IMG/VR virus record: IMGVR_UViG_3300033067_001151
Location: 1-38,874 of that record
Direction: 5' to 3' (one strand)
Source of the DNA: a virus
Lineage: Duplodnaviria; Caudoviricetes
Length of the DNA: 38,874 nucleotides
Below are positions 1 through 38,874 of the stretch, piece by piece. A program made the position numbers and the translations under genes. Numbering within the stretch: position 1 is the stretch's first letter; the number at the start of each line of letters is the position of its first letter. The notes below the pieces were generated by a model. That model was not told the origin of the DNA. It saw only the letters and a list, made by a program, of their open reading frames with translations, and did no database searches.

Positions 1-77
1 GTCACATGTTACAATACAGTGAACTTTAGTCGCCGTATCTAACAGCCCATTGGCTTCTATATCAACAACAGTAAAGT
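1..77. repeat. Exact 77-nt direct repeat, copy 1 (circularisation/assembly overlap)
   Basis: Base-by-base identical to 38145-38221; first mismatch at 78 versus 38222. Confidence 0.95.
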
Positions 78-93
78 CAATCAACTTATGCAT
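1..93 (-). CDS. 5' end of DNA polymerase A, alternative allele (MHKLIDFTVVDIEANG...), truncated at window edge
   Basis: ATG at 93 with AGAGGGG SD; nt 1-77 identical to 38145-38221 in the polymerase gene; first six residues MHKLID versus MYNSAN. Confidence 0.85.
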   Translation of the reverse strand, partial: MHKLIDFTVVDIEANGLLDTATKVHCIVTCD

Positions 94-123
94 TATCCCC
101 TCTAAGGTAAACTGTAGTTTACG

Positions 124-360
124 TTATTCTACGATATTGTTTGTTATTTTCCAATTTTCGTACTCTTCTAAGTTTTCAAAAAACCCCGGTATCTGATCAA
201 CTGGAACTTCTTTTAATTTTGGAGCATCTTCTCTATCATTGACAGTACTAAAACAACCCATTATATCGAACCTCATTGGCTTATTTGTTGTTGTGTTTAT
301 TGTTTGAACTGATAGTATAGACCACTCCCAACTATAATATGCACTTTTTATTTTGTACAT
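124..360 (-). CDS. Hypothetical protein (allele A only)
   Basis: 78-aa ORF with AGGGGG SD; absent from the homologous segment at 38222-38874. Confidence 0.65.
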   Translation of the reverse strand: MYKIKSAYYSWEWSILSVQTINTTTNKPMRFDIMGCFSTVNDREDAPKLKEVPVDQIPGFFENLEEYENWKITNNIVE

Positions 361-379
361 TATACCCCCTAAGTTAAGA

Positions 380-544
380 TTAGTTTAATTCCCAGATATC
401 TGTAATTGTATAACCCTTCTCAATAAACTCTTGTTGTATTTTTCTAAGTGCCGATTTACCATATATATACATTTCTAACACTGCTGTGTTGTAAGTATTT
501 TCATATGTAATAAGGTAGACTGGTGTTACTGTATTGTATTTCAT
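380..544 (-). CDS. Hypothetical 54-aa protein (MKYNTVTPVY...WELN; allele A only)
   Basis: Hand-translated; ATGA overlap with the stop of 541-771. Confidence 0.6.
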   Translation of the reverse strand: MKYNTVTPVYLITYENTYNTAVLEMYIYGKSALRKIQQEFIEKGYTITDIWELN

Positions 545-771
545 ACTACTTTAATTGTGGTTTTACTTGGTTTACTCGGTTCTACATCCTTCGGTTTCCC
601 AAAAGCATTGATCTTTTTCATAAAGATCTTTCCTATTTCACCAAGGTTTGTTTCTATGTTACTTAGAACTATTTTACGTTTTTCTACTGCAGCATTGGCA
701 ATCTCAATATCTGTTGCACGATTCAGCAGGTTTTGTAGTACTATTTGATAACTTCTTTCATCTAATGCCAT
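541..771 (-). CDS. Hypothetical protein MALDERSY..., allele A
   Basis: First 33 aa nearly identical to 38258-38509, with mostly synonymous DNA differences, supporting coding status. Confidence 0.85.
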   Translation of the reverse strand: MALDERSYQIVLQNLLNRATDIEIANAAVEKRKIVLSNIETNLGEIGKIFMKKINAFGKPKDVEPSKPSKTTIKVV

Positions 772-772
772 A

Positions 773-1015
773 TTAACTTACCCCCGTATTGTCATTCTTT
801 TTAGCATCGCCCTTTACTTGTTCCATATACAAGAAATCAATATCCTCATCTATCGGCGCTTCCATAACGCCGTCAGCTAACACTTGTAGTTGTTGTCTAG
901 TCAAGTTAGGGAACTCTCTAGATTCCTTACCAAACTCCAGCCTGAGCGTATAAAAGCCGTCGAGTTGTCTAATACTTTTAATGTTTATAAATTTATATAA
1001 TTCTGATACTGTCAT
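773..1015 (-). CDS. Hypothetical protein (ends KKNDNTGVS)
   Basis: GGGGGG SD before ATG at 1015 (alternative start 1033); C-terminus conserved in the fragment at 38840-38874. Confidence 0.75.
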   Translation of the reverse strand: MTVSELYKFINIKSIRQLDGFYTLRLEFGKESREFPNLTRQQLQVLADGVMEAPIDEDIDFLYMEQVKGDAKKNDNTGVS

Positions 1016-2941: not shown

Positions 2942-4231
2942 TTATTTACCTTTTAACATTTGTTGAATATACACTTTTTCTGTCAGCGTCGACAATCCAC
3001 GAACCCCTAATCCGAGTTCCTGAGATTCCTTTATTATACTCTTAATTTGCTTAGGAGTCAACGAAAATGTTTTGCCGTTATAGTACGCCAACATTTTAAA
3101 TTGCTTCACTATTGCTTCTCTTGAGTATAAAAGAATTTGTGTTAGGGCTTCTTCATTTAGCTTATTGAGGCGAACAACTTGTCCAATACGCCCTGCAATT
3201 TCTGGTATAATACCTGCCCTTATTAAATCTTTTTCAGTTAGTTCTTCACTTTTTGCATCATTTAAATTAACAAACCCTATTGACGGCTTATTACTTCTCT
3301 TTGTATTTTCTTCAAATATGGCAAATGATCCGCCAAGAACAATGATTACATTCCCCAGGTCTACGCCATCTATCGCCCCTTTTTGCTTACTATATGAGTC
3401 TGAGCGCAAATACCCTGTCTCAAGTATTTTTAATAGTGTTTTCTGACCGCCGTAAGTATGCATGTTATTGTCGTTGGTGCATAATTTATCAAATTCATCT
3501 AAAAATAATAATTGCGTTTTTCCCTCAGCTTCCCCTAATTGGTCTATAATATCAGAATAATCTTTGCCAACATAACCAGTTGATGTTAACTCAGATGCGT
3601 TAAAGTACGTGTAGTGGATACCTAAATGCTTTGCGATCCGCTCCATCATAAATGTCTTACCTGTACCAGTTCCGCCTTGTATAAGCAAATTTTTCTTGGG
3701 AATAGGTATTCCTTTGTTTAAATTGTGCGTAATAACCTGTAAGTTGGTATAAATATTAAACATTATATTTGATAGCGGGTCATCTTGACCTATAATAGTC
3801 TCTTTAAGGACATCTAGTGACTTATTTAACTCACTATAAAGGCTCATATGCTCGTTATCTTGCTCAACTGTAACATCGAACGCCAACCAAAAGTCCGTGT
3901 GGAACGGCGATTTATGTTTAAGTGCCTGTGCTACACTGCCTACATCTAGCTCTAGAAAATCGGCTTTTACTAATAGTCCTTCATTTTCAACAGTAATGTG
4001 TAGATTAAAGAATTTTTGTAGTATTTTAAATTCTCCAAGTGTTAATGCTGACTCTCCTGTGCTTTTTGTGTGCAATTTAGTGAGCCATTCTTGTCCTTTT
4101 ATTCCGCTGTAATACTCTAATTCATCTAGACAATCAAGTTTTTCAATTTCTTCTCTAAAAGACACTAAAACCCAGTTTGTATCGGAATTTAGAAAGGCTT
4201 GTGTTAGTTTTTGAGCTAAAGTTAGAGACAT
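2942..4231 (-). CDS. clpX: ClpX-like AAA+ unfoldase with a non-canonical N-terminal domain
   Basis: IIGQD, Walker A GGTGTGKT, pore loop TGYVG.D, Walker B LFLDEFDK, LLKILE, IGF loop (KPSIGF), G.IPE..GR, GVRGL; no C4 zinc-binding domain. Confidence 0.9.
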   Translation of the reverse strand: MSLTLAQKLTQAFLNSDTNWVLVSFREEIEKLDCLDELEYYSGIKGQEWLTKLHTKSTGESALTLGEFKILQKFFNLHITVENEGLLVKADFLELDVGSVAQALKHKSPFHTDFWLAFDVTVEQDNEHMSLYSELNKSLDVLKETIIGQDDPLSNIMFNIYTNLQVITHNLNKGIPIPKKNLLIQGGTGTGKTFMMERIAKHLGIHYTYFNASELTSTGYVGKDYSDIIDQLGEAEGKTQLLFLDEFDKLCTNDNNMHTYGGQKTLLKILETGYLRSDSYSKQKGAIDGVDLGNVIIVLGGSFAIFEENTKRSNKPSIGFVNLNDAKSEELTEKDLIRAGIIPEIAGRIGQVVRLNKLNEEALTQILLYSREAIVKQFKMLAYYNGKTFSLTPKQIKSIIKESQELGLGVRGLSTLTEKVYIQQMLKGK

Positions 4232-4233
4232 GC

Positions 4234-4833
4234 TTACCTCGCTAATTCAGTTTTTATGCGTTTTTCAGAAAATAAATTCTGTGCGTAGGATATTAATATT
4301 TGTTGTATCTCATGCCGTACTACTGATGTAAATAATGTTGTGCTGATATTCATTGGTGTTGTGTCGGCTAAAAATATAACTCTTTCTATCTCGCGGCGTT
4401 TAACTAGTCCTGCCGACGGCTTTGGTTTTCCGTTAACATTGCCGTAAATCCACCTACCAAACTCTTTTGAAGCGCCGTCAATATCATTTTGTAGCAATTT
4501 TTTAAGTAAAGTGCTGTTTTTAAAGTTTCCGATGCCTAAATTAAAGGTAAAATCAAATAAAGCGTCAAACTGTACTTGACTTAGTTCAATATTTTTACAT
4601 ATTTCACATAAAAGCCGTTCATGATGTGCCCTGTCTATCTCAAAAAGTTGATTCGCCATCTCAAAAGTCAAGTTATTTATGTCAATTCCTATTTCTTTTA
4701 AACCGGCTTCTTCACCAGACTTAATTGCATGTCCGTAACCAACAGTCATGACGCCTACTGCATCTGAGTATATCCTAAGGCTCAATCCCTCCATTTCTTT
4801 AACAACTGCACAAATAGCGTTACTTGCTTTCAT
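4234..4833 (-). CDS. Endolysin, GH24 phage lysozyme
   Basis: E-x8-D-x5-T triad (EGLSLRIYSDAVGVMT), GYGH, FDALFDFTFNLG, STLLKKL, GLVKRR..E; start at 4833 chosen for its AAGGGGG SD. Confidence 0.92.
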   Translation of the reverse strand: MKASNAICAVVKEMEGLSLRIYSDAVGVMTVGYGHAIKSGEEAGLKEIGIDINNLTFEMANQLFEIDRAHHERLLCEICKNIELSQVQFDALFDFTFNLGIGNFKNSTLLKKLLQNDIDGASKEFGRWIYGNVNGKPKPSAGLVKRREIERVIFLADTTPMNISTTLFTSVVRHEIQQILISYAQNLFSEKRIKTELAR

Positions 4834-4960
4834 TGGTGAATCCCCCTTCATAAATTTGTCGTAAAATTTCGTTAAAATCTTCTTCACTTAAATTTCCCTC
4901 TAAATATTCTTGTTGTAAAGTTATTAAATACGCCCGAATCTCTGGTGGATACTTAATCAT
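4820..4960 (-). CDS. Hypothetical small protein (MIKYPPEIRAY...)
   Basis: Fills the gap between neighbouring genes; ATG just after the upstream stop. Confidence 0.55.
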   Translation of the reverse strand: MIKYPPEIRAYLITLQQEYLEGNLSEEDFNEILRQIYEGGFTNESK

Positions 4961-6249: not shown

Positions 6250-6546
6250 TTATTTAAATATTTTATTACATTTTATAGCATGGTGTGCACGTTCAATTTG
6301 TACTTCATTTCTTACATAACCGTTATTTAAATAATTTCTAACGGCCACAAAGCAAGCTACAAGTCCAGCAACTAAAAAAGCTAATATCATGAACCTCCAG
6401 CCAAGATAGAAGGTTTCAGTAAATACACCAAAGTGTGTACATAATTCACCAACTAACCATAATATATCAGCGGCTATTGCAGAAGCACCAGCTACAGTTG
6501 CTACTGTAAACGGGCTTTTGCTTAAAAATTTTGTTTTTGTATTCAT
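6250..6546 (-). CDS. Hypothetical two-TM membrane protein
   Basis: 98 aa with two hydrophobic segments; AAGG SD; own upstream promoter. Confidence 0.75.
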   Translation of the reverse strand: MNTKTKFLSKSPFTVATVAGASAIAADILWLVGELCTHFGVFTETFYLGWRFMILAFLVAGLVACFVAVRNYLNNGYVRNEVQIERAHHAIKCNKIFK

Positions 6547-29081: not shown

Positions 29082-29525
29082 ATGCCAATCATAGGATTAT
29101 TAACATCAGTATTTAGTTTAATAGGCTCGGGGGTTCAAGGATTCTTCGGGATTAAACAATCTCAACTTCAAAACATAGATAAAGTTATAGAGACAATTAA
29201 TCAGTCTAATATATCTTCTGGAGAGAAAGAAAAATCAATTGCTGCTGTAATAGCCGCTGAAACATCAAATGGATATTGGTTAAGTGCCGTATGGCGACCT
29301 TTATTTATGTTATTCCTTTGTGTTGTTGTTGGAGCTTATGTTTTAGGTTACACTACCCCTAATTTACTTGTACCCATGCCACAAGGCTCTATGATGTCTG
29401 AGCTATTTGAATTACTTAAGGTTGGTATAATGGGGTATATGCCTTTAAGGACTGTAGATAAAATAGTTGAAGCTGTTGCTAGAGCCAATGTCCTTAAATC
29501 ATTAGTAGATAGAATAGGTAAATAA
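29082..29525 (+). CDS. Holin, GTA 3TM-like family
   Basis: AE....WL...WRP..M and GY...RT.DK motifs with hydrophobic helices. Confidence 0.75.
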   Translation: MPIIGLLTSVFSLIGSGVQGFFGIKQSQLQNIDKVIETINQSNISSGEKEKSIAAVIAAETSNGYWLSAVWRPLFMLFLCVVVGAYVLGYTTPNLLVPMPQGSMMSELFELLKVGIMGYMPLRTVDKIVEAVARANVLKSLVDRIGK

Positions 29526-29526
29526 C

Positions 29527-30366
29527 CTATTTATTTAACTCTCTAATTCTCTTATAAGATGCCAATGAACTTGTAATGTACGGATATAGGTTAACTAAGA
29601 CTGTAGTATTGCTTACAAGTAGGTCAAAAGTCGTTACACCCCCAATTAACACCTTAAAATCGATAATTCCTTGCATATAAAGCGGTATTAAAACAAAGAA
29701 TGGTATTGCGACGCCAAAAAGCATCTTTATAGAAGCAAACGTTCTGAAGGCTGTCATAACACCTAAACACTTCAAAGTCGTGCTGTACACGTAACTATAG
29801 AGGTCAATTATTTTTGATTGGCTTCTATTTTCAATAACATCCCTAATATCACCCCTAAAAGTCTGTTCTGAAGCTTGAATATTATACTGAGTACTTACTA
29901 ACGGCTTATTAAAGATAAAAGCTAATAAAGTAACTAAACACGTATAGCCGACAGTATACCAAAATAGGGATGGATGAACTTGTCCTATTAATCCTATTAC
30001 GGCAAATAGTGCAATGGTAACATCTAATACTACACTAAACATTGAGTCTACAAAGTTTTTAACGTCACAAGCAACTCGCCCACAAGCATTCTCTTGTAAG
30101 CACACTGGTTTTGATGTTATTTTATTTATTAGCCACAATCGTATCTCTAATCCCATTAATCCTACGATAAAAGGTCTTATGCTATCTATTGTGTAATATG
30201 TAAATAAAGCCCCCATAAATACAGCGAATGCATGTGTATATTCTGGGGATTTTTCTATTAGGTCATTATAGAACCCGCCTCTCATATCTGGTATTACTAT
30301 TTGTATCCAAATTGATACACCAACTACAAGTAATAAGCCTAAGCTTAAAGAGATCTTTTTTACCAT
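29527..30366 (-). CDS. SbmA/BacA/YddA-like ABC transmembrane domain without ATPase
   Basis: FYNDL, IR.WL, N...RVA.DV..F, Q..E..FR, P.Y..G.I.F..L, ASY.RI.E motifs; several TM helices; no Walker motifs. Confidence 0.7.
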   Translation of the reverse strand: MVKKISLSLGLLLVVGVSIWIQIVIPDMRGGFYNDLIEKSPEYTHAFAVFMGALFTYYTIDSIRPFIVGLMGLEIRLWLINKITSKPVCLQENACGRVACDVKNFVDSMFSVVLDVTIALFAVIGLIGQVHPSLFWYTVGYTCLVTLLAFIFNKPLVSTQYNIQASEQTFRGDIRDVIENRSQSKIIDLYSYVYSTTLKCLGVMTAFRTFASIKMLFGVAIPFFVLIPLYMQGIIDFKVLIGGVTTFDLLVSNTTVLVNLYPYITSSLASYKRIRELNK

Positions 30367-30698
30367 TGATTATAATCCTGCTCATTCCAGTATTTATTAT
30401 TCGGCTTTTTTTCTTCTTTTAGCTTTACTAGCTCTACTGCCATAGCCAAGCTACATAAAGCATGTTCTAAATGCAATAAGCCAGACTCAGGGTCTTTTTC
30501 TTCTTTCATTGCTAACTTAAGTAAATGTCGTTTAGTCGCCTCTATATACTGGTCTGGTGTAGTGTGCTCCAGCCACCCCCAAGGAGAGTTATATTTATTG
30601 TTTCCAAACTCCCTAACCTTAGCTATTGATGCATAAGCCCTAGGCGGCACTAAGTTAAGCGGTAGCTTACCTTTTGTATCTTTATGTCCTTTTGTCAT
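30360..30698 (-). CDS. DUF5664 (dATP/dGTP diphosphohydrolase-like) protein
   Basis: K...GK....LVP, FG..KY, RHL, DPESGL.HL.HA motifs. Confidence 0.85.
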   Translation of the reverse strand: MTKGHKDTKGKLPLNLVPPRAYASIAKVREFGNNKYNSPWGWLEHTTPDQYIEATKRHLLKLAMKEEKDPESGLLHLEHALCSLAMAVELVKLKEEKKPNNKYWNEQDYNQW

Positions 30699-30889
30699 TA
30701 TTCCCCCACATCATTTATTTCATTATAATATTCTTCTTCTGTAATATATGGTATGTTGTGTTCAGTGAATATATGACTATATTCTTTTCTTATTATACAC
30801 ACGTCTAATAAACCAACAAAACCTACATGATCCCCGGATACTTTGTCATATATGAAAGAATCTTCTAGTAAAAAAAGATCTTTTAACAT
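30698..30889 (-). CDS. Hypothetical protein
   Basis: 63-aa ORF; TAATG overlap with the next gene. Confidence 0.65.
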   Translation of the reverse strand: MLKDLFLLEDSFIYDKVSGDHVGFVGLLDVCIIRKEYSHIFTEHNIPYITEEEYYNEINDVGE

Positions 30890-30896
30890 TATAAAC

Positions 30897-30971
30897 CTAC
30901 AATAATGCGATTAAAATTAATACGGCTATTGTAACTATTAATCCAGTAACTATTTGTACTAAATGTTCCAT
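30897..30971 (-). CDS. 24-aa single-TM peptide MEHLVQIVTGLIVTIAVLILIALL
   Basis: GGAGGGG SD; fills the gap between dUTPase and the next ORF. Confidence 0.55.
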   Translation of the reverse strand: MEHLVQIVTGLIVTIAVLILIALL

Positions 30972-30979
30972 ATCCCCTC

Positions 30980-31435
30980 CTATTTTGTTGTACTTCCAAA
31001 TCCACCTGTACCTCTACTAGTATCATCTAGTTCTTGTACAATGTCAAGATTTATTTTTTCTACTTTTTGTATTATTAGTTGAACAACTCTAGTACCGCCT
31101 ACCAGATGAACCCCAAACGGAACTTGAAGTAATACACATAATTCGCCCCTATAGTCGCTATCTATTGTTGCCGGTGCATTAGGTATTGTAACACCTTTTT
31201 GAGCCCAACTACTTCTCATACGTAATTGCCCTTCGTAACCTTCTGGTATAGCCAATGCAAATCCTAGACGTATTTTGTAAACACTATATCCTTGTTTGAT
31301 ACAAGTTTGCTCCGCCGTATCCATAAAGTTATTAGGCAGTGTTATATCATATCCACTACTTCCAACTGTACCTTGTGTTGGAAGAAATGAGTCTTCCCTT
31401 AGTTTTTTTATTTTAATTTTTATTTCGTTAGTCAT
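30980..31435 (-). CDS. dut: Trimeric dUTPase
   Basis: SGYD, RSS, TIDSDYRGE, R.VQL and RGTGGFGST motifs I-V. Confidence 0.95.
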   Translation of the reverse strand: MTNEIKIKIKKLREDSFLPTQGTVGSSGYDITLPNNFMDTAEQTCIKQGYSVYKIRLGFALAIPEGYEGQLRMRSSWAQKGVTIPNAPATIDSDYRGELCVLLQVPFGVHLVGGTRVVQLIIQKVEKINLDIVQELDDTSRGTGGFGSTTK

Positions 31436-32127
31436 TATAATACCTCTATATCACAATCATAATCACATCCTGGGCTATTATCAGCAGCAGCCGTTACGGC
31501 AGCCTCTAATATATCCTCGGCATCCATATCTAAGTAAGTGTAGATAGGCTCAATAGATACGCATTCTTTTCCACCTATCATTGTTTTTGGTAGAGTATCT
31601 ACTGGCTTATAGAAATTAAGTTTCTTACAGAATTGTAATATTGCTAAAGCAAAACTTCCTCCGCAGCCATGGGCATAGTCCAATGGAACTCTATCTAGAG
31701 TAATCATGTCAGCTGTTAGCTCCATTTCAAACACAAACCTTTCTTTCTTACTTTTGACCCCAATTAATACTACGGCATGTAAGTCGTCGGATTCTTTTAA
31801 GTTACGGCTTACTAATCGGCGTTCTTTAGCATCTACATATCCTTTGTGCCTTAAGTCCCCGATAATAGCAGGGAGCAGTTTGTCATATACATATTTCTCT
31901 ACACTTTGTTTACCTTCATACACAGGTATTTTACTCCTATGTATTATTTCAAATATAAGAGAAGCGCTACCTGTACCAGACATTAATATGCCGTTACGTT
32001 TAACAACCTTTTTAGTTGGAGTCGAGGCAGCTTTGCCCCAACCCCAAGAGATTCTCCTATCGGCAGCAAAGTATAGCTTTTTACCTAGCTCCATTGTTAC
32101 AAGTACTGTACCAGATTTTATAGCCAT
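31435..32127 (-). CDS. HslV/proteasome-beta-like Ntn threonine protease
   Basis: MAIKSG|T propeptide junction; from Thr1: Asp17 (AAD), Lys33/34, Gly47; GCG in place of the GSG motif. Confidence 0.75.
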   Translation of the reverse strand: MAIKSGTVLVTMELGKKLYFAADRRISWGWGKAASTPTKKVVKRNGILMSGTGSASLIFEIIHRSKIPVYEGKQSVEKYVYDKLLPAIIGDLRHKGYVDAKERRLVSRNLKESDDLHAVVLIGVKSKKERFVFEMELTADMITLDRVPLDYAHGCGGSFALAILQFCKKLNFYKPVDTLPKTMIGGKECVSIEPIYTYLDMDAEDILEAAVTAAADNSPGCDYDCDIEVL

Positions 32128-32137
32128 AGTTTACTCC

Positions 32138-32905
32138 CTATTGTTTATTATACAGCTCTGCAATACCTAAGTCAATCAATTGTTGACCAGTAAATACAAC
32201 ATCTTCTTTAAAATCCGCAAAGATTTCTTTTTTAACATAAGTATAAGTATATTTAGGGTCTACTTTCTTCAAGTGGTCAGATACAGTTTGTACCATTTCG
32301 GCATTACCTGCTTTTACCATTGAAAGCATAGTGTGTAGTGTTTGTCTCAATCCGTTAAGTCCAGAGCCTTCCATAATAACCTTAGCAACTTCAATAGCTT
32401 TAATCTCTTCAAGTGTTAAGTCTGCTGGAGGAGCTTTACCTGTCATCAAATCTTTAATTATGGACTCTAGTCTACCTTTCTCTAATTGTACTACGGCATT
32501 CTCGATTGTTATCTCAGTTAAAGCATATGTACCAAAGTGACCGCCGTGGAATAAAATCCTAGCATTTGGTGTTACGTATCGGTGCTCTCCCAAAATAAAA
32601 GATACAGCCCCTGCGCTAGCAGCTTCGCTGGTGACCAATGTATCTACTGGAACTTTAGAACTAGCCACAATAGATTCTATTTGAGCCATAGTTTTTCCAG
32701 AACCTCCTGGGCTATCTATCACCAACAGGATTCTTTCGTCTTTGGTTACTACATAATTGAACAAATCAAAATCGGCTTTTAAATGTTCGGCAGTAGATTG
32801 GTCTACATCTCCTAATATTTCTGTAACGTTATCGTTAGCGGCACATGAGGTCAATATCACAAGAGATATAATTCCAGTTGCCAGTAATAATAAAAAGTTT
32901 TTCAT
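32138..32905 (-). CDS. ClpP-family serine protease with a lipoprotein signal peptide
   Basis: Lipobox LTSC at residue 21; IDSPGGS, AASAG (Ser), ILFH (His), EDVVFT....DLGIAE (Asp). Confidence 0.8.
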   Translation of the reverse strand: MKNFLLLLATGIISLVILTSCAANDNVTEILGDVDQSTAEHLKADFDLFNYVVTKDERILLVIDSPGGSGKTMAQIESIVASSKVPVDTLVTSEAASAGAVSFILGEHRYVTPNARILFHGGHFGTYALTEITIENAVVQLEKGRLESIIKDLMTGKAPPADLTLEEIKAIEVAKVIMEGSGLNGLRQTLHTMLSMVKAGNAEMVQTVSDHLKKVDPKYTYTYVKKEIFADFKEDVVFTGQQLIDLGIAELYNKQ

Positions 32906-34121: not shown

Positions 34122-34643
34122 TTAGTACTCCTGATTACTTAAGTCTACCACATACGGCTTCAAATTACAACTGTTATTTTTGCTTCTGTGATAATGTTCT
34201 CGTTTCTTTCTTTTTATTTCCTCGTTATTCAATAGCCTATATTTGTTTACAGACTGTAGAATTCTTTTTCTATTCTTTAAATAATACTGCTGTGCATAAT
34301 CAGCAGCTTTAGGGGGTCTTTTAGGAACTAAGCCAGTTTTATAAGCGTGTTTAATGTTCTCCCCTCGTGTTACCAGTTCTAAATTGCCCAAAGAGTTATT
34401 TCTTTTATTACCGTCCCTATGATTTACACACAAAGTATGTCCTTGCCAAAAATACTCGGCAATTATTTTGTGGATTCTTTTTTGATAGTTTTTTCCGTTT
34501 TTCCTTAATTGAACCCTTAAATACCCATATTTATCTATATAAATAGATAGCTGCCGTTTAGTATTAGTGTTAGTAACTTCAGTTACCCCTGTTTGCAGGT
34601 CATAACCAACCGTATATTTATTTAAGATATCCCACTTTATCAT
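34122..34643 (-). mobile_element. Free-standing HNH homing endonuclease gene
   Basis: GYL.V.L, IH..IAE.F, VNHRDGNKRNN...NLE.VT..EN..HA; ATG overlaps the helicase stop (TAATG). Confidence 0.88.
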
Positions 34644-36343
34644 TAATACTCCTGCGTAGATAAATCTACTGTATATGGTTGTAGACAACAGCCATTAGGG
34701 CTTACAAAGCCAAACTTTTTACCATTAGCATTTGACTGTCTGGCTTTTTCTACAATCAAAACAATATCACCCCCTACATCATCATAAGAAGTGTCTTTCT
34801 TTTCGGCGGCTTTAAGTTTATTCCACACTTTAAAGTGTAGTGCTGCCGTAAATTCTATGTCTTTAGATTCCCTTACAGAATCTTGATATCCAGTTTGCCC
34901 ACTAGTAAGCTGTGAACCGCCGATTAACAATTGATTATTTTTATTTGCCACCAACCTAATCTTTTCTACCATTTCTTTTAGTTGAAGATAACGTTGTGAG
35001 GTGTTTGACGGCAAAGGAATAACTTGTAAATAGTCGATAAATACGGCTACCGGCTTTCCTAGCGCAGCTAGTCTATTCATAGCAGATAATACTTGGTCAA
35101 TTGTAGTTTGACTATCTACTACTCTTAGTTTTCTGGATGCTAATAGCTCTGCATATTTGTGACACGCAGGTAGTGACATATCTCTAATAGCTTGGTCTAT
35201 AAATAAGTCTTCTTCCCAGCCAGATTCTGTGTGCATTGTGCCGTCTAATGTCTTTACCATACGTATATTTAATTCCGATATAGGAAATTCGTAAGACAAA
35301 TACATTACCGTTAAATCTGTGTTCTGAGCAAGGTTTAGCGCCATATTAATCATCATAGCGGTTTTACCGTGGTTAGTTCTACCAGAAATAACTACAAGTC
35401 CTGAGTTTGGAAACTGAACAAACCTATCTACATTAGAAAACCCAGTTGGATAATACTTATATTGGCGGCTGTGTAAAGCTTGCAAATCCATAGGATTAAG
35501 TTCGCCGTCTAACGGCTGGTCTAGTTCTACTTCTTCTTTTCCTAAGAATAAACTTTTAATTAATTCCATATCGGCTATATCAGCAATATCAAATCCTTTA
35601 GGAAGCTCGCTGACGTTTATTTTATATAATTTAGAAGGAGTAGCCGTTTCTATTAATATTGTTTGAAGTTCTTCCATAGCTTTTAATCCTGCTTCATCGG
35701 CATCAGCCCATAAAGTTACTTCAGTACCTTTTAAAATACTCCAGTCTGTCTTAGATACATTATTACTACCACCAACCCAGGATAGTACATTAGATTTCTT
35801 GGCTATTTTTGCCGCGTAATCTGCTGCCTTCTCACCTTCCACAATGAGCGTCGGCTTGCTAGGGTCAAAGGATTCAATTCTATAAGGCATATTAATGCCA
35901 GATGGGCGCGAAAGGACATATTTATTATCAAGTCCCAAGGATATGGGGCGTATTTGTTTCTCATCTTTATCTCCAGTCCTAAGTATATAGAACATTAGTT
36001 GTTCATCCCTATTGTAGTAAGGGTATTTAATTGATTTATCGAAGAGTTCTTTTAAGTCGCCAGTCCAAACTCCTTTGTCGTTCCACGGCTTAAATTTCTC
36101 TTCTGGTACTTTAATAGTGGTTTTCATCTGACCCTTTTTAAAATAATGTACTTGCCGCTTTGCCCACTCGCATGAGGAGTTGTTGCATTGCCATACAACA
36201 CATTCTTCTTCTCCAAATACGCTAAGGCACTTTTGGTTAGCTTTATGTCGTTTAGTTCTATTAGCTTCACACTGAGGGCATGTTGTGTTATATTTGCTCT
36301 CGGCTTTGTATTCAATTCCATTGTCCTCCAATATGTTTTTCAT
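34643..36343 (-). CDS. Primase-helicase (Zn finger, TOPRIM, DnaB-like SF4 helicase)
   Basis: CPQC...C....C; VEGEKAA, DADEAG; SGRTNHGKT, YLSYE, FIDYLQ, SQL. Confidence 0.93.
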   Translation of the reverse strand: MKNILEDNGIEYKAESKYNTTCPQCEANRTKRHKANQKCLSVFGEEECVVWQCNNSSCEWAKRQVHYFKKGQMKTTIKVPEEKFKPWNDKGVWTGDLKELFDKSIKYPYYNRDEQLMFYILRTGDKDEKQIRPISLGLDNKYVLSRPSGINMPYRIESFDPSKPTLIVEGEKAADYAAKIAKKSNVLSWVGGSNNVSKTDWSILKGTEVTLWADADEAGLKAMEELQTILIETATPSKLYKINVSELPKGFDIADIADMELIKSLFLGKEEVELDQPLDGELNPMDLQALHSRQYKYYPTGFSNVDRFVQFPNSGLVVISGRTNHGKTAMMINMALNLAQNTDLTVMYLSYEFPISELNIRMVKTLDGTMHTESGWEEDLFIDQAIRDMSLPACHKYAELLASRKLRVVDSQTTIDQVLSAMNRLAALGKPVAVFIDYLQVIPLPSNTSQRYLQLKEMVEKIRLVANKNNQLLIGGSQLTSGQTGYQDSVRESKDIEFTAALHFKVWNKLKAAEKKDTSYDDVGGDIVLIVEKARQSNANGKKFGFVSPNGCCLQPYTVDLSTQEY

Positions 36344-36455: not shown

Positions 36456-38237
36456 CTATTTTGTTTCTTTCCAGTTATTTCCAACTTTAGCTTCACCTTT
36501 TAGTGGTATCCGAAGTTTGAAATGCTCACCTGATTCTACAATAGCACGCTCAATAAGCTGTGTCAACAATTTTATTTGCTCTGCATCATCTTTTATTATT
36601 ACTTGAAATTCATCATGATAAAACATTACTATTCTAGCATCAAGATTATTTTCTTTAATATAGTCATATAACCTACAATACGCCCATTTCATAGCTATTG
36701 ATCCTGCAGATTGTATTAAAGTATTTTTTAATTTGTGCATACCTCGCACATATAATTTTCTTTTGTCAAGCCCTATTATCCACGGATTTTTACTTTCATC
36801 TAAATCTTTTTTACCCCATTTTCCGGCTTTTAAAAATCCTCTTTTTTGTAGTGCCCACTCAATATCATCCAACAACATCTTAAGTCCATACCACGTTTCG
36901 TAGTGCATGTCAATAATTTCTTTTGCGCGGCTTTCAGAAACATTTAGTAGTGATGCCAGTTTAGTTGCTCCGCAGCCGTAAGCCATAGCATAGAACGGCG
37001 CTTTAGCCTCATTTCTAGTTACGCCCCAAGCATCGGCATTAAATTGGTGTACGTCCATTTCAAGCAAGTATTTGCCGTATAACCCATTGTCGTATTTTTG
37101 TGTATAATGACCTTCAATTCTAGCCTCTAATTGGCTGGCGTCACAACCAACTAATTTATATCCTTCTGGTACAGTAAATAAATCTTTAAACTCTGGCTGT
37201 ATGTTGGCGATAACGGCATGCCTAAAACGAGCCGTGTTTGTACCACAAGTGTATGAAAACATCTTTAGTTTACCAGTAATAGGGTCTGCTTTCTTTTTAA
37301 ACCCCTCTAATACACCTCGGCGATGTATGGCGTCTCTAAAATCCGATATAACTGCTGCAATGTGTAGTGGAACTCCGATAAGTGGGTCGTCCCTAAGACT
37401 TGGTGCTCCTTTTGGAGTCTTACTTTCTGGCTTCCAACCAACAGATAGTAGGTATTCAACTAGTTGCTTTACACTTGACGGCTCAAATTCTTTAGAATCT
37501 ATTTTGCAAAAATCCCCACAAGCATTGTATATAGTTGATGCAACTGAAGGTTTTCCACTTTTTGTTAAGTAGGAAATCTCTTTTCCTTGTATTACTTCTG
37601 GTTTTTTTAGGCTCTTTAATTGATAATTGATCTTCTCGTAAAGTTTGTTGTAGATATCCAGTTTGACATCTAGTTCCGTTAAATCGACTTGCCATTCTGA
37701 CCCCATTTCGCAGTTTATTTCGTATACTTTTTGTTCTAGCTTAATTGATTGACTCCAATCCCAGTTATCTTCCGAGAATTTATTCAAGCACTTATCTAAA
37801 AGCCGTTTATTGATTTTTACGTCTTCCGTACACCTATGTAGCATATCGGCGTTAAATATTTCCCACTGTTCTTGCTTCGGCTTCTCAATACCAAATACCT
37901 TGCCCCATTCGCCTAATCCATGTGTTGCTCTTTCGTTGGCGTATAACATCTGGCTACAAATAAATGTATCAAGGAAATTTGTTGGCGACCAATTAAATAG
38001 TTTTTTTAATAGTGGAAAATCGTACCCAATGATATTATGACCAGCAATTATAGATTTTTTACCCAAGTAATTAAGTGCATCTTTTATATTACCTTGCCTA
38101 GGAAGTAGTGGGGATTCATGCCATTGCTTTATAGTACCGTCAGGGTCACATGTTACAATACAGTGAACTTTAGTCGCCGTATCTAACAGCCCATTGGCTT
38201 CTATATCAACAACAGTAAAGTTAGCTGAATTATACAT
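36456..38237 (-). CDS. Family A DNA polymerase, T7-like
   Basis: Exo DIEANG, HNIIGYD; motif A DASQLEAR, motif B RNEAKAPFYAMAYG, motif C YHDE. Confidence 0.96.
   Translation of the reverse strand: MYNSANFTVVDIEANGLLDTATKVHCIVTCDPDGTIKQWHESPLLPRQGNIKDALNYLGKKSIIAGHNIIGYDFPLLKKLFNWSPTNFLDTFICSQMLYANERATHGLGEWGKVFGIEKPKQEQWEIFNADMLHRCTEDVKINKRLLDKCLNKFSEDNWDWSQSIKLEQKVYEINCEMGSEWQVDLTELDVKLDIYNKLYEKINYQLKSLKKPEVIQGKEISYLTKSGKPSVASTIYNACGDFCKIDSKEFEPSSVKQLVEYLLSVGWKPESKTPKGAPSLRDDPLIGVPLHIAAVISDFRDAIHRRGVLEGFKKKADPITGKLKMFSYTCGTNTARFRHAVIANIQPEFKDLFTVPEGYKLVGCDASQLEARIEGHYTQKYDNGLYGKYLLEMDVHQFNADAWGVTRNEAKAPFYAMAYGCGATKLASLLNVSESRAKEIIDMHYETWYGLKMLLDDIEWALQKRGFLKAGKWGKKDLDESKNPWIIGLDKRKLYVRGMHKLKNTLIQSAGSIAMKWAYCRLYDYIKENNLDARIVMFYHDEFQVIIKDDAEQIKLLTQLIERAIVESGEHFKLRIPLKGEAKVGNNWKETK
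38145..38221. repeat. Exact 77-nt direct repeat, copy 2
   Basis: Identical to nt 1-77. Confidence 0.95.
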
Positions 38238-38257
38238 TATCTCCCTTAGTGCAAATG

Positions 38258-38509
38258 TTAGTTTACTTTAACAGTATTCTTTGGCTGTTTAGTCCCAGCC
38301 CCACTTTCCTCAACTACTTGTGCTTGTTTCGCCTTTCCAAACGAATTAAGTTTTTTCATAAATAAAGCACCTATAATACCTAAATTCTTTTCTATTTGCA
38401 CTATATCTACTTTACGTTTCTCTACGGCTGCATCAGCAATCTCAATATCTGTTGCACGGTTTAGTAGATTTTGTAAAACAATTTGATAACTTCTTTCATC
38501 TAATGCCAT
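38258..38509 (-). CDS. Hypothetical protein MALDERSY..., allele B
   Basis: Homologue of 541-771; start set at 38509 by homology and AAGGG SD. Confidence 0.85.
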   Translation of the reverse strand: MALDERSYQIVLQNLLNRATDIEIADAAVEKRKVDIVQIEKNLGIIGALFMKKLNSFGKAKQAQVVEESGAGTKQPKNTVKVN

Positions 38510-38510
38510 A

Positions 38511-38843
38511 TTAACCCTTCCTACTACGTAAAAAATTAAATAAAATACGATCATCATTTTTATCAACAGAGTCCCTTATAACACCTTCCACTTCTTCTAT
38601 CAATACAGTAGCTCTGGTGTGCTCATCAACCCCTTCTAAATACCCGCATATGTCTATATACCTAATGTCAATCCCTAGTTCAACATCTAAAGAAAAAATA
38701 TCAAATGTTGTTAGAACTAACCAAATCTCTCGGCATTTTTTTAGTTGTGTGTACCTGCTCAGTTTGTTAAGTTCTTTCTGTTCTAAGATTGCTAGTTCGT
38801 TGTTTAGCATCTTAATTTTATCTTTAATCCGCTTAATTTTCAT
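38511..38843 (-). CDS. Hypothetical protein (allele B only)
   Basis: 110-aa ORF, ATGA-coupled to the upstream gene, GGGG SD; absent from allele A. Confidence 0.65.
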   Translation of the reverse strand: MKIKRIKDKIKMLNNELAILEQKELNKLSRYTQLKKCREIWLVLTTFDIFSLDVELGIDIRYIDICGYLEGVDEHTRATVLIEEVEGVIRDSVDKNDDRILFNFLRSRKG

Positions 38844-38874
38844 GAGACCCCCGTATTGTCATTTTTTCTAGCAT
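38840..38874 (-). CDS. 3' fragment of the allele-B homologue of 773-1015 (...ARKNDNTGVS*)
   Basis: Matches the AKKNDNTGVS C-terminus of the allele A gene; truncated at window edge. Confidence 0.75.
   Translation of the reverse strand, partial: ARKNDNTGVS

What the first reader, a model, noticed from the sequence alone, without database searches (positions are those of the whole stretch)
29527..32905. Phage-encoded proteolysis toolkit: lipoprotein ClpP, HslV-like protease, SbmA-like importer, plus ClpX at 2942-4231
Seen: a 38-kb podovirus-type genome carries two unrelated protease folds side by side (ClpP-type at 32138-32905, Thr/Ntn-type at 31435-32127). An ATPase-less SbmA/BacA-like membrane domain lies about 1 kb downstream and a ClpX-like unfoldase is on the same strand. 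All are outside the head module, so they are unlikely to be capsid maturation proteases. Established: ClpXP and HslUV are ATP-dependent proteases, and SbmA/BacA import peptides without an NBD. Inference: these form one system that either scavenges peptides (envelope ClpP cuts, SbmA-like imports, HslV-like finishes) or remodels the host proteome. I know of no characterised small-phage system with this combination, but cannot verify novelty without a search.
Basis: partly seen in the sequence, partly recalled or inferred. Interest (0 to 1): 0.85.

Follow-up and report, generated by a model that had tools for sequence, protein, structure and literature searches.

The report
Phage envelope protease plus peptide importer
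This small bacterial virus carries a membrane-anchored ClpP-fold protease, a stripped-down SbmA-like membrane transporter, a proteasome-fold peptidase and a ClpX-like unfoldase; the same four kinds of gene recur in three other, partly unrelated uncultured phages, and they likely help the virus turn proteins into peptides and amino acids for building new particles, which is untested.

Summary
All four genes are real, at the stated coordinates (profiles, folds, catalytic residues). The linkage recurs. Four phage records carry all four kinds (window, G002, G019, and G001, which shares no structural gene with the window). Of 8 long records with the SbmA-like gene, 7 also carry an N-terminally anchored ClpP-fold protease, in three cases next to it. 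It is not an obligate four-gene system: 0 of 7 near-complete relatives picked by capsid alone have the transporter, while 5 of 7 have ClpX plus the anchored ClpP. Among 13 records with the anchored ClpP, 5 have the HslV-like gene, 7 a cytoplasmic ClpP, none both. Corrections: the lipobox is rare in the family (a hydrophobic anchor is what is kept). The transporter lacks TM0, most of SbmA's glutamate ladder and both ABC coupling helices, so it is a separate viral family, not SbmA. ClpX keeps the ClpP-docking IGF loop, so it likely uses host ClpP. Best reading: a modular proteolysis and peptide-uptake kit. Host, substrates and activity are unknown.

The parts
32138..32905 (-). N-terminally anchored ClpP-fold (S14-like) serine protease; lipobox at Cys21 in this copy; triad Ser97-His120-Asp235; about 70-residue helical insert between His and Asp
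31435..32127 (-). Ntn/proteasome-beta-fold (HslV-like) peptidase; Thr7, Asp23, Lys40, Gly53 match Thr1, Asp17, Lys33, Gly47; six residues precede Thr7; Cys155 and Cys221 sit where the proteasome has Ser129 and Ser169 (numbering recalled); about 30-residue insert between helices 3 and 4
29527..30366 (-). TMD-only SbmA/YddA-like inner-membrane protein; no NBD, no TM0, both coupling helices deleted
2942..4231 (-). ClpX-like AAA+ unfoldase: Walker A and B, GYVG pore-1 and IGF loop kept; no zinc-binding domain, RKH loop or ClpX pore-2 motif; unrelated 130-residue N-terminal region
4234..4887 (-). Phage lysozyme directly upstream of ClpX-like; the same order holds in G003, G004, G005a, G007, G008, and G002 has an RlpA-like lytic transglycosylase there
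30360..31435 (-). dUTPase, two small ORFs and a dATP/dGTP diphosphohydrolase between HslV-like and SbmA-like (context, not part of the kit)
29082..29525 (+). GTA-type holin-like gene convergent with SbmA-like; same arrangement in G002 (context)
32147..32175 (-). Best sigma-70-like site of the region (11 of 12 matches) just upstream of the HslV-like start; lead only, since the site count (40) is near chance (37.6)

Best explanation
The four genes are likely a modular proteolysis and peptide-uptake kit in which the anchored ClpP-fold protease would cut proteins in the cell envelope, the NBD-less transporter would bring the peptides in without ATP, and a cytoplasmic stage (the ClpX-like unfoldase, predicted to dock on host ClpP, plus the HslV-like peptidase) would break them and host proteins down to amino acids for virion synthesis. 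Shown: folds, catalytic residues, lost coupling helices, kept IGF loop, recurrence of the gene kinds, and that HslV-like and cytoplasmic ClpP genes never co-occur in the records seen. Inferred: periplasmic location, proteolytic and transport activity, peptide cargo, ClpX docking on host ClpP, and the nutritional purpose. The kit is modular: anchored ClpP plus ClpX is the common core in this capsid clade, and the transporter and HslV-like gene are optional.
For: All four kinds in 4 records: the window, G002 (within 5.5 kb; capsid 65% identical), G019 (capsid 26%) and G001 (no structural gene shared). ClpX, HslV-like and SbmA-like of these are mostly 24-38% identical pairwise (SbmA of window and G002 49%), so this is not one recent cassette. 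7 of 8 long SbmA-bearing records carry an anchored ClpP; gaps are 3 bp (G016), 25 bp (G018) and a 13-bp overlap (G001); the miss, G020, is a 68% fragment whose SbmA start matches G017's. 2 of 4 metagenome loci over 10 kb (L070 dropped as a copy of L069) also have it; in the two misses SbmA lies at most 1.5 kb from the upstream edge. Background is low: no SbmA-like or HslV-like match among 50,697 GenBank phage records, and only partial generic Clp matches or none for anchored ClpPs. SbmA-bearing records add other peptidases: M17 in G001 (in a run ClpX, HslV-like, a small ORF, M17) and G016, M24 in G016 and L066, M48 in L066. 13 records with anchored ClpP: 5 HslV-like only, 7 cytoplasmic ClpP only, 1 neither, 0 both (Fisher p 0.005, uncorrected for kinship). 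SbmA and YddA-like proteins are peptide importers, and loss of coupling helices marks ATP-independent SbmA (PMC8442886, PMC13316013, passages).
Against: 0 of 7 near-complete capsid-selected relatives carry the transporter and 1 of 7 an HslV-like gene (G009, without ClpX or ClpP); 5 of 7 have anchored ClpP without any transporter. G016, G017 and G018 have the transporter without ClpX or HslV-like. The genes are interleaved with nucleotide-metabolism genes, not a tight operon. Only 1 of the 5 SbmA ladder glutamates (E276) is clearly kept in the window's protein, so the energy source is unclear. In G016, G018 and L067 a B12-dependent ribonucleotide reductase lies next to the transporter or its ClpP neighbour, which suggests another cargo. 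G001, G002 and G016-G020 were found through one of the genes under test, and related phages are not independent. The host is unknown. No activity was measured.
Confidence: 0.42

Rival explanations
1. Host takeover or counter-defence: ClpX-like redirects host ClpP to host regulators or defence proteins, HslV-like or phage ClpP adds capacity, and the envelope protease and transporter alter the membrane (for example destroying receptors or incoming phage ejection proteins). Nutrition is incidental.
For: ClpX-like keeps the IGF-type loop and a pore-1 aromatic in 12 of 12 but lacks the zinc domain, RKH and pore-2 motifs that set ClpX specificity, which fits new substrate choice. All four lie in the replication arm. 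G001 also carries PrkA-YeaH-SpoVR.
Against: Does not by itself explain the repeated adjacency of an importer-type TMD to the exported protease, or the aminopeptidases in the same genomes.
Confidence: 0.25
2. The transporter carries a non-peptide solute such as cobalamin and is unrelated in function to the proteases.
For: Its structural kin Rv1819c and ABCD4 are cobalamin transporters (PMC13316013 passages). Class II RNR lies beside it, or beside its ClpP neighbour, in G016, G018 and L067.
Against: G017, G020 and L069 have class I RNR, and the window, G001, G002 and G019 gave no RNR match, yet all carry the transporter. The anchored ClpP tracks it better than RNR II does.
Confidence: 0.12
3. 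The genes are separately useful accessory genes drawn from a pool shared by phages of one host group, and co-occur because of shared host and shared replication module, not a shared pathway.
For: Patchy distribution within the capsid clade. All these phages share a PolA, primase-helicase, YqaJ and exonuclease module. Phage proteasome-fold genes are common on their own (PPH and AAH in PMC8665760, passages; Atlas clusters 76-92% viral).
Against: Direct adjacency of transporter and anchored ClpP in three records with different capsids, the ClpX, HslV-like and M17 run in G001, and no record with both HslV-like and cytoplasmic ClpP.
Confidence: 0.13
4. Lysis or envelope remodelling: ClpX times the neighbouring endolysin, and the anchored protease weakens envelope proteins at release.
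For: Lysozyme directly precedes ClpX in 6 records and an RlpA-like hydrolase does so in G002. SbmA-like abuts the holin-like gene in the window and G002.
Against: The adjacency is confined to one subclade and absent in G001, G010 and G019. It gives no role to an importer.
Confidence: 0.08

Closest known systems
SbmA/BacA (SLiPT) and YddA/BclA/Rv1819c transporters
   Same: Type IV ABC TMD fold (Atlas TM 0.90 over all 279 residues; SbmA E 1e-5); no NBD; coupling helices absent as in SbmA; D194, E276 and R280 equivalents kept.
   Different: No TM0, ladder largely absent, 270-310 aa; a separate family of about 90 clusters at 50% identity, seen here only in phage-like contigs. In 301 sampled bacterial genomes all 14 matches lay in open frames of 472-656 aa. 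The SbmA phylogeny of PMC13316013 used proteins of 300 aa or more, and 'phage' does not occur in its main text.
ClpP / ClpXP (S14) and ClpP-type prohead proteases
   Same: Fold, Ser-His-Asp triad; ClpX with Walker motifs, GYVG and IGF. ClpX-like genes are annotated in large phages such as Atu_ph07 and Phosso.
   Different: ClpP-like has an export or anchor signal and a helical insert and lies outside the head module; ClpX-like lacks ZBD, RKH and pore-2; the genome is only 38 kb.
SppA (S49) and NfeD membrane-bound ClpP-fold proteases
   Same: ClpP/crotonase fold behind a membrane anchor (Z 13-16; PF25145 under its cut-off).
   Different: It has the ClpP triad with His rather than the Ser-Lys dyad of S49 (recalled), and scores higher against ClpP.
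HslV, BPH and the phage proteasome homologs PPH and AAH (PMC8665760)
   Same: Ntn fold; Thr1, Asp17, Lys33, Gly47 equivalents; found in phages.
   Different: No HslU in the genome; Cys at the two accessory serine positions (10 of 11 and 11 of 11 rows); 230 aa against about 140 for PPH; H3/H4 insert; short leader before Thr. Assignment to AAH was not tested.

Membership tests
ClpP (S14) | ClpP fold | tested here: met
   Z 19.1, rmsd 3.8, 172 aligned to human ClpP
ClpP (S14) | Ser-His-Asp triad | tested here: met
   S97, H120, D235 invariant in 6 of 6; by alignment, geometry not measured
ClpP (S14) | Score over the housekeeping ClpP model cut-off | tested here: not met
   TIGR00493 25.9 bits vs 308.6
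ClpP (S14) | Cytoplasmic tetradecamer gated by an AAA+ ring | not testable with these tools
   The N-terminal hydrophobic anchor argues for export
ClpP-type prohead protease | Gene in the head module next to portal and capsid | tested here: not met
   Opposite strand, over 16 kb from the capsid gene
Lipoprotein | Lipobox Cys after a signal peptide, conserved | tested here: inconclusive
   Present in the window and P0002, absent in 30 of 32 rows, of which 10 are cytoplasmic-type
HslV (T1B) | Ntn fold with Thr1, Asp17, Lys33, Gly47 | tested here: met
   triad as defined in PMC8665760 section 3.3
HslV (T1B) | Accessory Ser129 / Asp166 / Ser169 (numbering recalled) | tested here: not met
   Cys155, Ser218, Cys221 instead
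HslV (T1B) | HslU partner encoded alongside | tested here: not met
   The AAA+ protein is closer to ClpX (E 1e-30) than HslU (1e-11 to 1e-13) and has an IGF loop
HslV (T1B) | Double-ring assembly | not tested
   The model has an H3/H4 insert, a site where inserts could block double rings
SbmA/BacA (SLiPT) | TMD without NBD and without coupling helices | tested here: met
   Deletions of about 12 and 11 residues against 10 full-length ABC proteins
SbmA/BacA (SLiPT) | TM0 domain | tested here: not met
   Profile position 17 aligns to SbmA residue 100; 279 vs 406 aa
SbmA/BacA (SLiPT) | Glutamate ladder E193, E203, E276, E287, E378 | tested here: not met
   Only E276 clearly kept; the E193 position is Cys here but Glu in 62% of 96 family rows; E203 alignment unsure
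SbmA/BacA (SLiPT) | Proton-driven peptide import | not testable with these tools
   needs a transport assay
ClpX | Walker A/B, pore-1 aromatic loop, IGF loop | tested here: met
   IGF-type loop in 12 of 12 phage rows
ClpX | N-terminal zinc-binding domain, RKH loop, pore-2 motif; equivalog cut-off | tested here: not met
   (157 vs 359 bits)

The most novel reading that the evidence does not exclude
A guild of small uncultured phages encodes a complete trans-envelope protein-harvesting pathway: an exported ClpP-fold protease feeding an independently evolved, minimal, ATP-independent peptide importer (a second origin of an SbmA-like transporter from YddA), finished by a cytoplasmic ClpX-like unfoldase for which a proteasome-fold peptidase and ClpP are interchangeable downstream proteases.
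Probability: 0.3. Interest if true: 0.88.

Novelty: new variant of a known kind. Interest (0 to 1): 0.68.

Why it matters
It gives a natural 279-residue test of how an ABC transporter domain works after losing its ATPase, coupling helices and most of the SbmA proton ladder, a question the SbmA papers raise. If the kit works as proposed, phages would supply their own nitrogen by importing peptides, a role not found in my literature searches. The either/or pattern of HslV-like and ClpP genes also gives the first functional lead I found for the uncharacterised phage proteasome homologs.

Tried and rejected
Complex prediction of two HslV-like chains with the ClpX-like AAA domain gave no verdict (score 0.00, controls not folded); it says nothing about binding either way. 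No RNA holder was listed. Host search failed: the genome-collection capsid scan gave one MAG contig at 33% identity, covering head and tail genes only; genome handles carry no taxonomy; nearest cultured capsid and PolA matches are about 30% (pelagiphages). Single-protein and narrow-alignment scans of viral contigs for ClpP and helicase found nothing. Sequence search of the HslV-like protein against PDB was uninformative. A search for a small secreted pro-peptide (arbitrium-like signalling) found no candidate in the window or G002 and only unconvincing short membrane ORFs in G001 and G019; an integrase match was seen only in G003, so signalling is set aside. Capsid-maturation protease was rejected by position. 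Assembly artefact: no public contig spans the region, but G002 has the same order (exonuclease, ClpP ... HslV-like ... SbmA, convergent holin), so it was rejected. A hydropathy scan found only 4 clear TM segments in the transporter; the six-helix core rests on structural match. Three look-ups in earlier findings of this scan returned nothing. Rows left out of counts: the second part of G005 (genes identical to G004), L070 (copy of L069), fragments G011-G013; G014, G015 and 11 short capsid loci were not fetched whole or analysed.
Full report
Setting. The window is one 38,874-nt phage contig, 37% G+C, with a plus-strand podovirus head and tail arm (terminase, portal, PF19821 capsid, tail) and a minus-strand arm with PolA, primase-helicase, exonucleases, endonuclease I, dUTPase and lysozyme. 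Its ends overlap imperfectly (78-93% alike), so it is likely a circularly permuted genome whose ends come from different strains. The ClpX-like gene then lies about 8.2 kb upstream of the ClpP-like gene in the same arm. Short, near-identical contig pieces occur in a freshwater metagenome run (X3, one study). No close cultured relative was found (capsid and PolA about 30% to pelagiphages), and the host is unknown.

The four proteins. ClpP-like: ClpP fold, triad Ser97-His120-Asp235 invariant in 6 of 6, and an N-terminal hydrophobic segment. The lipobox is present only in this copy and P0002 (2 of 32 rows), while the anchor is general in the non-cytoplasmic group. I infer an exported or membrane-anchored protease. 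HslV-like: proteasome-beta fold. Thr7, Asp23, Lys40 and Gly53 match the triad and oxyanion residue defined in PMC8665760 (section 3.3 read). In G002 and G019 the Thr follows the initiator Met directly, which supports Thr7 as the nucleophile behind a short leader. Cys stands at two accessory serine positions in 10 of 11 and 11 of 11 rows. Phage proteasome-fold genes are already known but uncharacterised (PPH, AAH; passages). SbmA-like: a type IV ABC membrane core with no NBD and no TM0. Both coupling-helix segments are deleted against 10 full-length YddA-type proteins. Only E276 of the five ladder glutamates named in PMC8442886 (passages) is clearly kept. It belongs to a large family of 270-310-residue proteins (96 rows aligned) that the Atlas shows in mostly viral clusters. 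The family profile hit only long ABC frames in 14 of 301 bacterial genomes. It works like SbmA by inference but fails membership. ClpX-like: closer to ClpX than HslU. The IGF-type loop is kept in 12 of 12 phage rows; ZBD, RKH and pore-2 motifs are lost. Established ClpXP biology (recalled) makes the IGF loop the ClpP docking element, so host ClpP is the likely partner here.

Co-occurrence. G002, found by SbmA, has anchored ClpP, a divergent HslV-like, ClpX-like and SbmA-like within 5.5 kb. G001, found by HslV, shares no structural gene with the window. It has ClpX next to HslV-like with an M17 aminopeptidase one small ORF further on, and SbmA-like between two anchored ClpP-like genes. G019, found with a distant SbmA profile, has all four. 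Of 8 long SbmA-bearing records, 7 have an anchored ClpP, adjacent in G001, G016 and G018; these include phages with different capsid and tail types. Against a fixed system: a capsid scan gave 25 loci, and 13 records were searched. In the 7 near-complete ones not used to build the query (G003, G004, G005a, G006-G009), anchored ClpP and ClpX occur in the same 5, cytoplasmic ClpP in 4, HslV-like in 1 and SbmA-like in 0. Among 13 long records with anchored ClpP, none has both HslV-like and cytoplasmic ClpP (5, 7 and 1 neither; naive p 0.005, not corrected for kinship or selection). As background, tblastn over 50,697 GenBank phage records gave no match for two SbmA-like and two HslV-like queries, and only partial generic matches or none for three anchored ClpPs. 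tblastn misses distant members, so this shows rarity, not absence.

Mechanism. The anatomy splits into an envelope stage (anchored protease, importer-type membrane domain that cannot couple to an NBD in the usual way) and a cytoplasmic stage (unfoldase plus either a ClpP or an HslV-like peptidase, sometimes with M17, M24 or M48 peptidases). I commit to protein turnover and peptide uptake for amino-acid supply at 0.42. Selective host takeover (0.25), separate accessory genes (0.13), cobalamin import (0.12; class II RNR is next to the module in 3 records but absent from the window, G001, G002 and G019) and lysis control (0.08; lysozyme precedes ClpX in 6 records) are the rivals. Every functional step is inferred.

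Novelty. Seven full-text searches aimed at this combination or its parts in phages returned no describing paper, judged from listings and abstract starts only; led to the proteasome-homolog paper. 'Phage' does not occur in the main text of PMC13316013 or PMC12912959 (passages). The library lacks most subscription journals, and supplements were not read. The parts are variants of known kinds. The viral minimal transporter family, its link to an exported ClpP-fold protease, and the HslV-or-ClpP pattern appear undescribed. Verdict: real, recurrent, modular; interest 0.68.

Noticed in passing
window 1-807 and 38145-38874: Contig ends are homologous but only 78-93% alike, suggesting two strains joined at a circular overlap.
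   Followed up: partly
window 4234-4887; G003, G004, G005a, G007, G008; L002:7823-8212: A cell-wall hydrolase sits directly upstream of ClpX-like in 7 records (lysozyme in 6, RlpA-like in G002); the window's lysozyme has a C-terminal tail of about 45 residues beyond the Pfam domain.
   Followed up: partly
G001:22962-29066 (L010:4962-11066): PrkA, YeaH (DUF444) and SpoVR genes in a 44-kb phage record, together with the proteolysis genes and a zincin-like metallopeptidase.
   Followed up: no
G009:15423-16876 (L051): Two tandem, very divergent HslV-like genes in a relative with no ClpX or ClpP.
   Followed up: no
G005 (L042-L044): The 54.7-kb record appears to join two phages; its last 16 kb carries genes identical to G004.
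   Followed up: partly
L079:11455-11814 (G017), L069:15771-16178; similar small ORFs upstream of the helicase in G003, G004, G005a and near PolA in G007, G008: S-adenosylmethionine decarboxylase-like genes recur in these phages (Pfam hit for the first two; the others by eye).
   Followed up: no
window 6250-6546(-): A 98-residue hydrophobic protein without a family, kept in G002, G003 and G004 at 42-50% identity.
   Followed up: no
window 34122-34688(-): HNH endonuclease gene overlapping the end of the primase-helicase gene.
   Followed up: no
L073:2846-3778: Patatin-like phospholipase in the replication arm of an SbmA-like-bearing phage contig.
   Followed up: no
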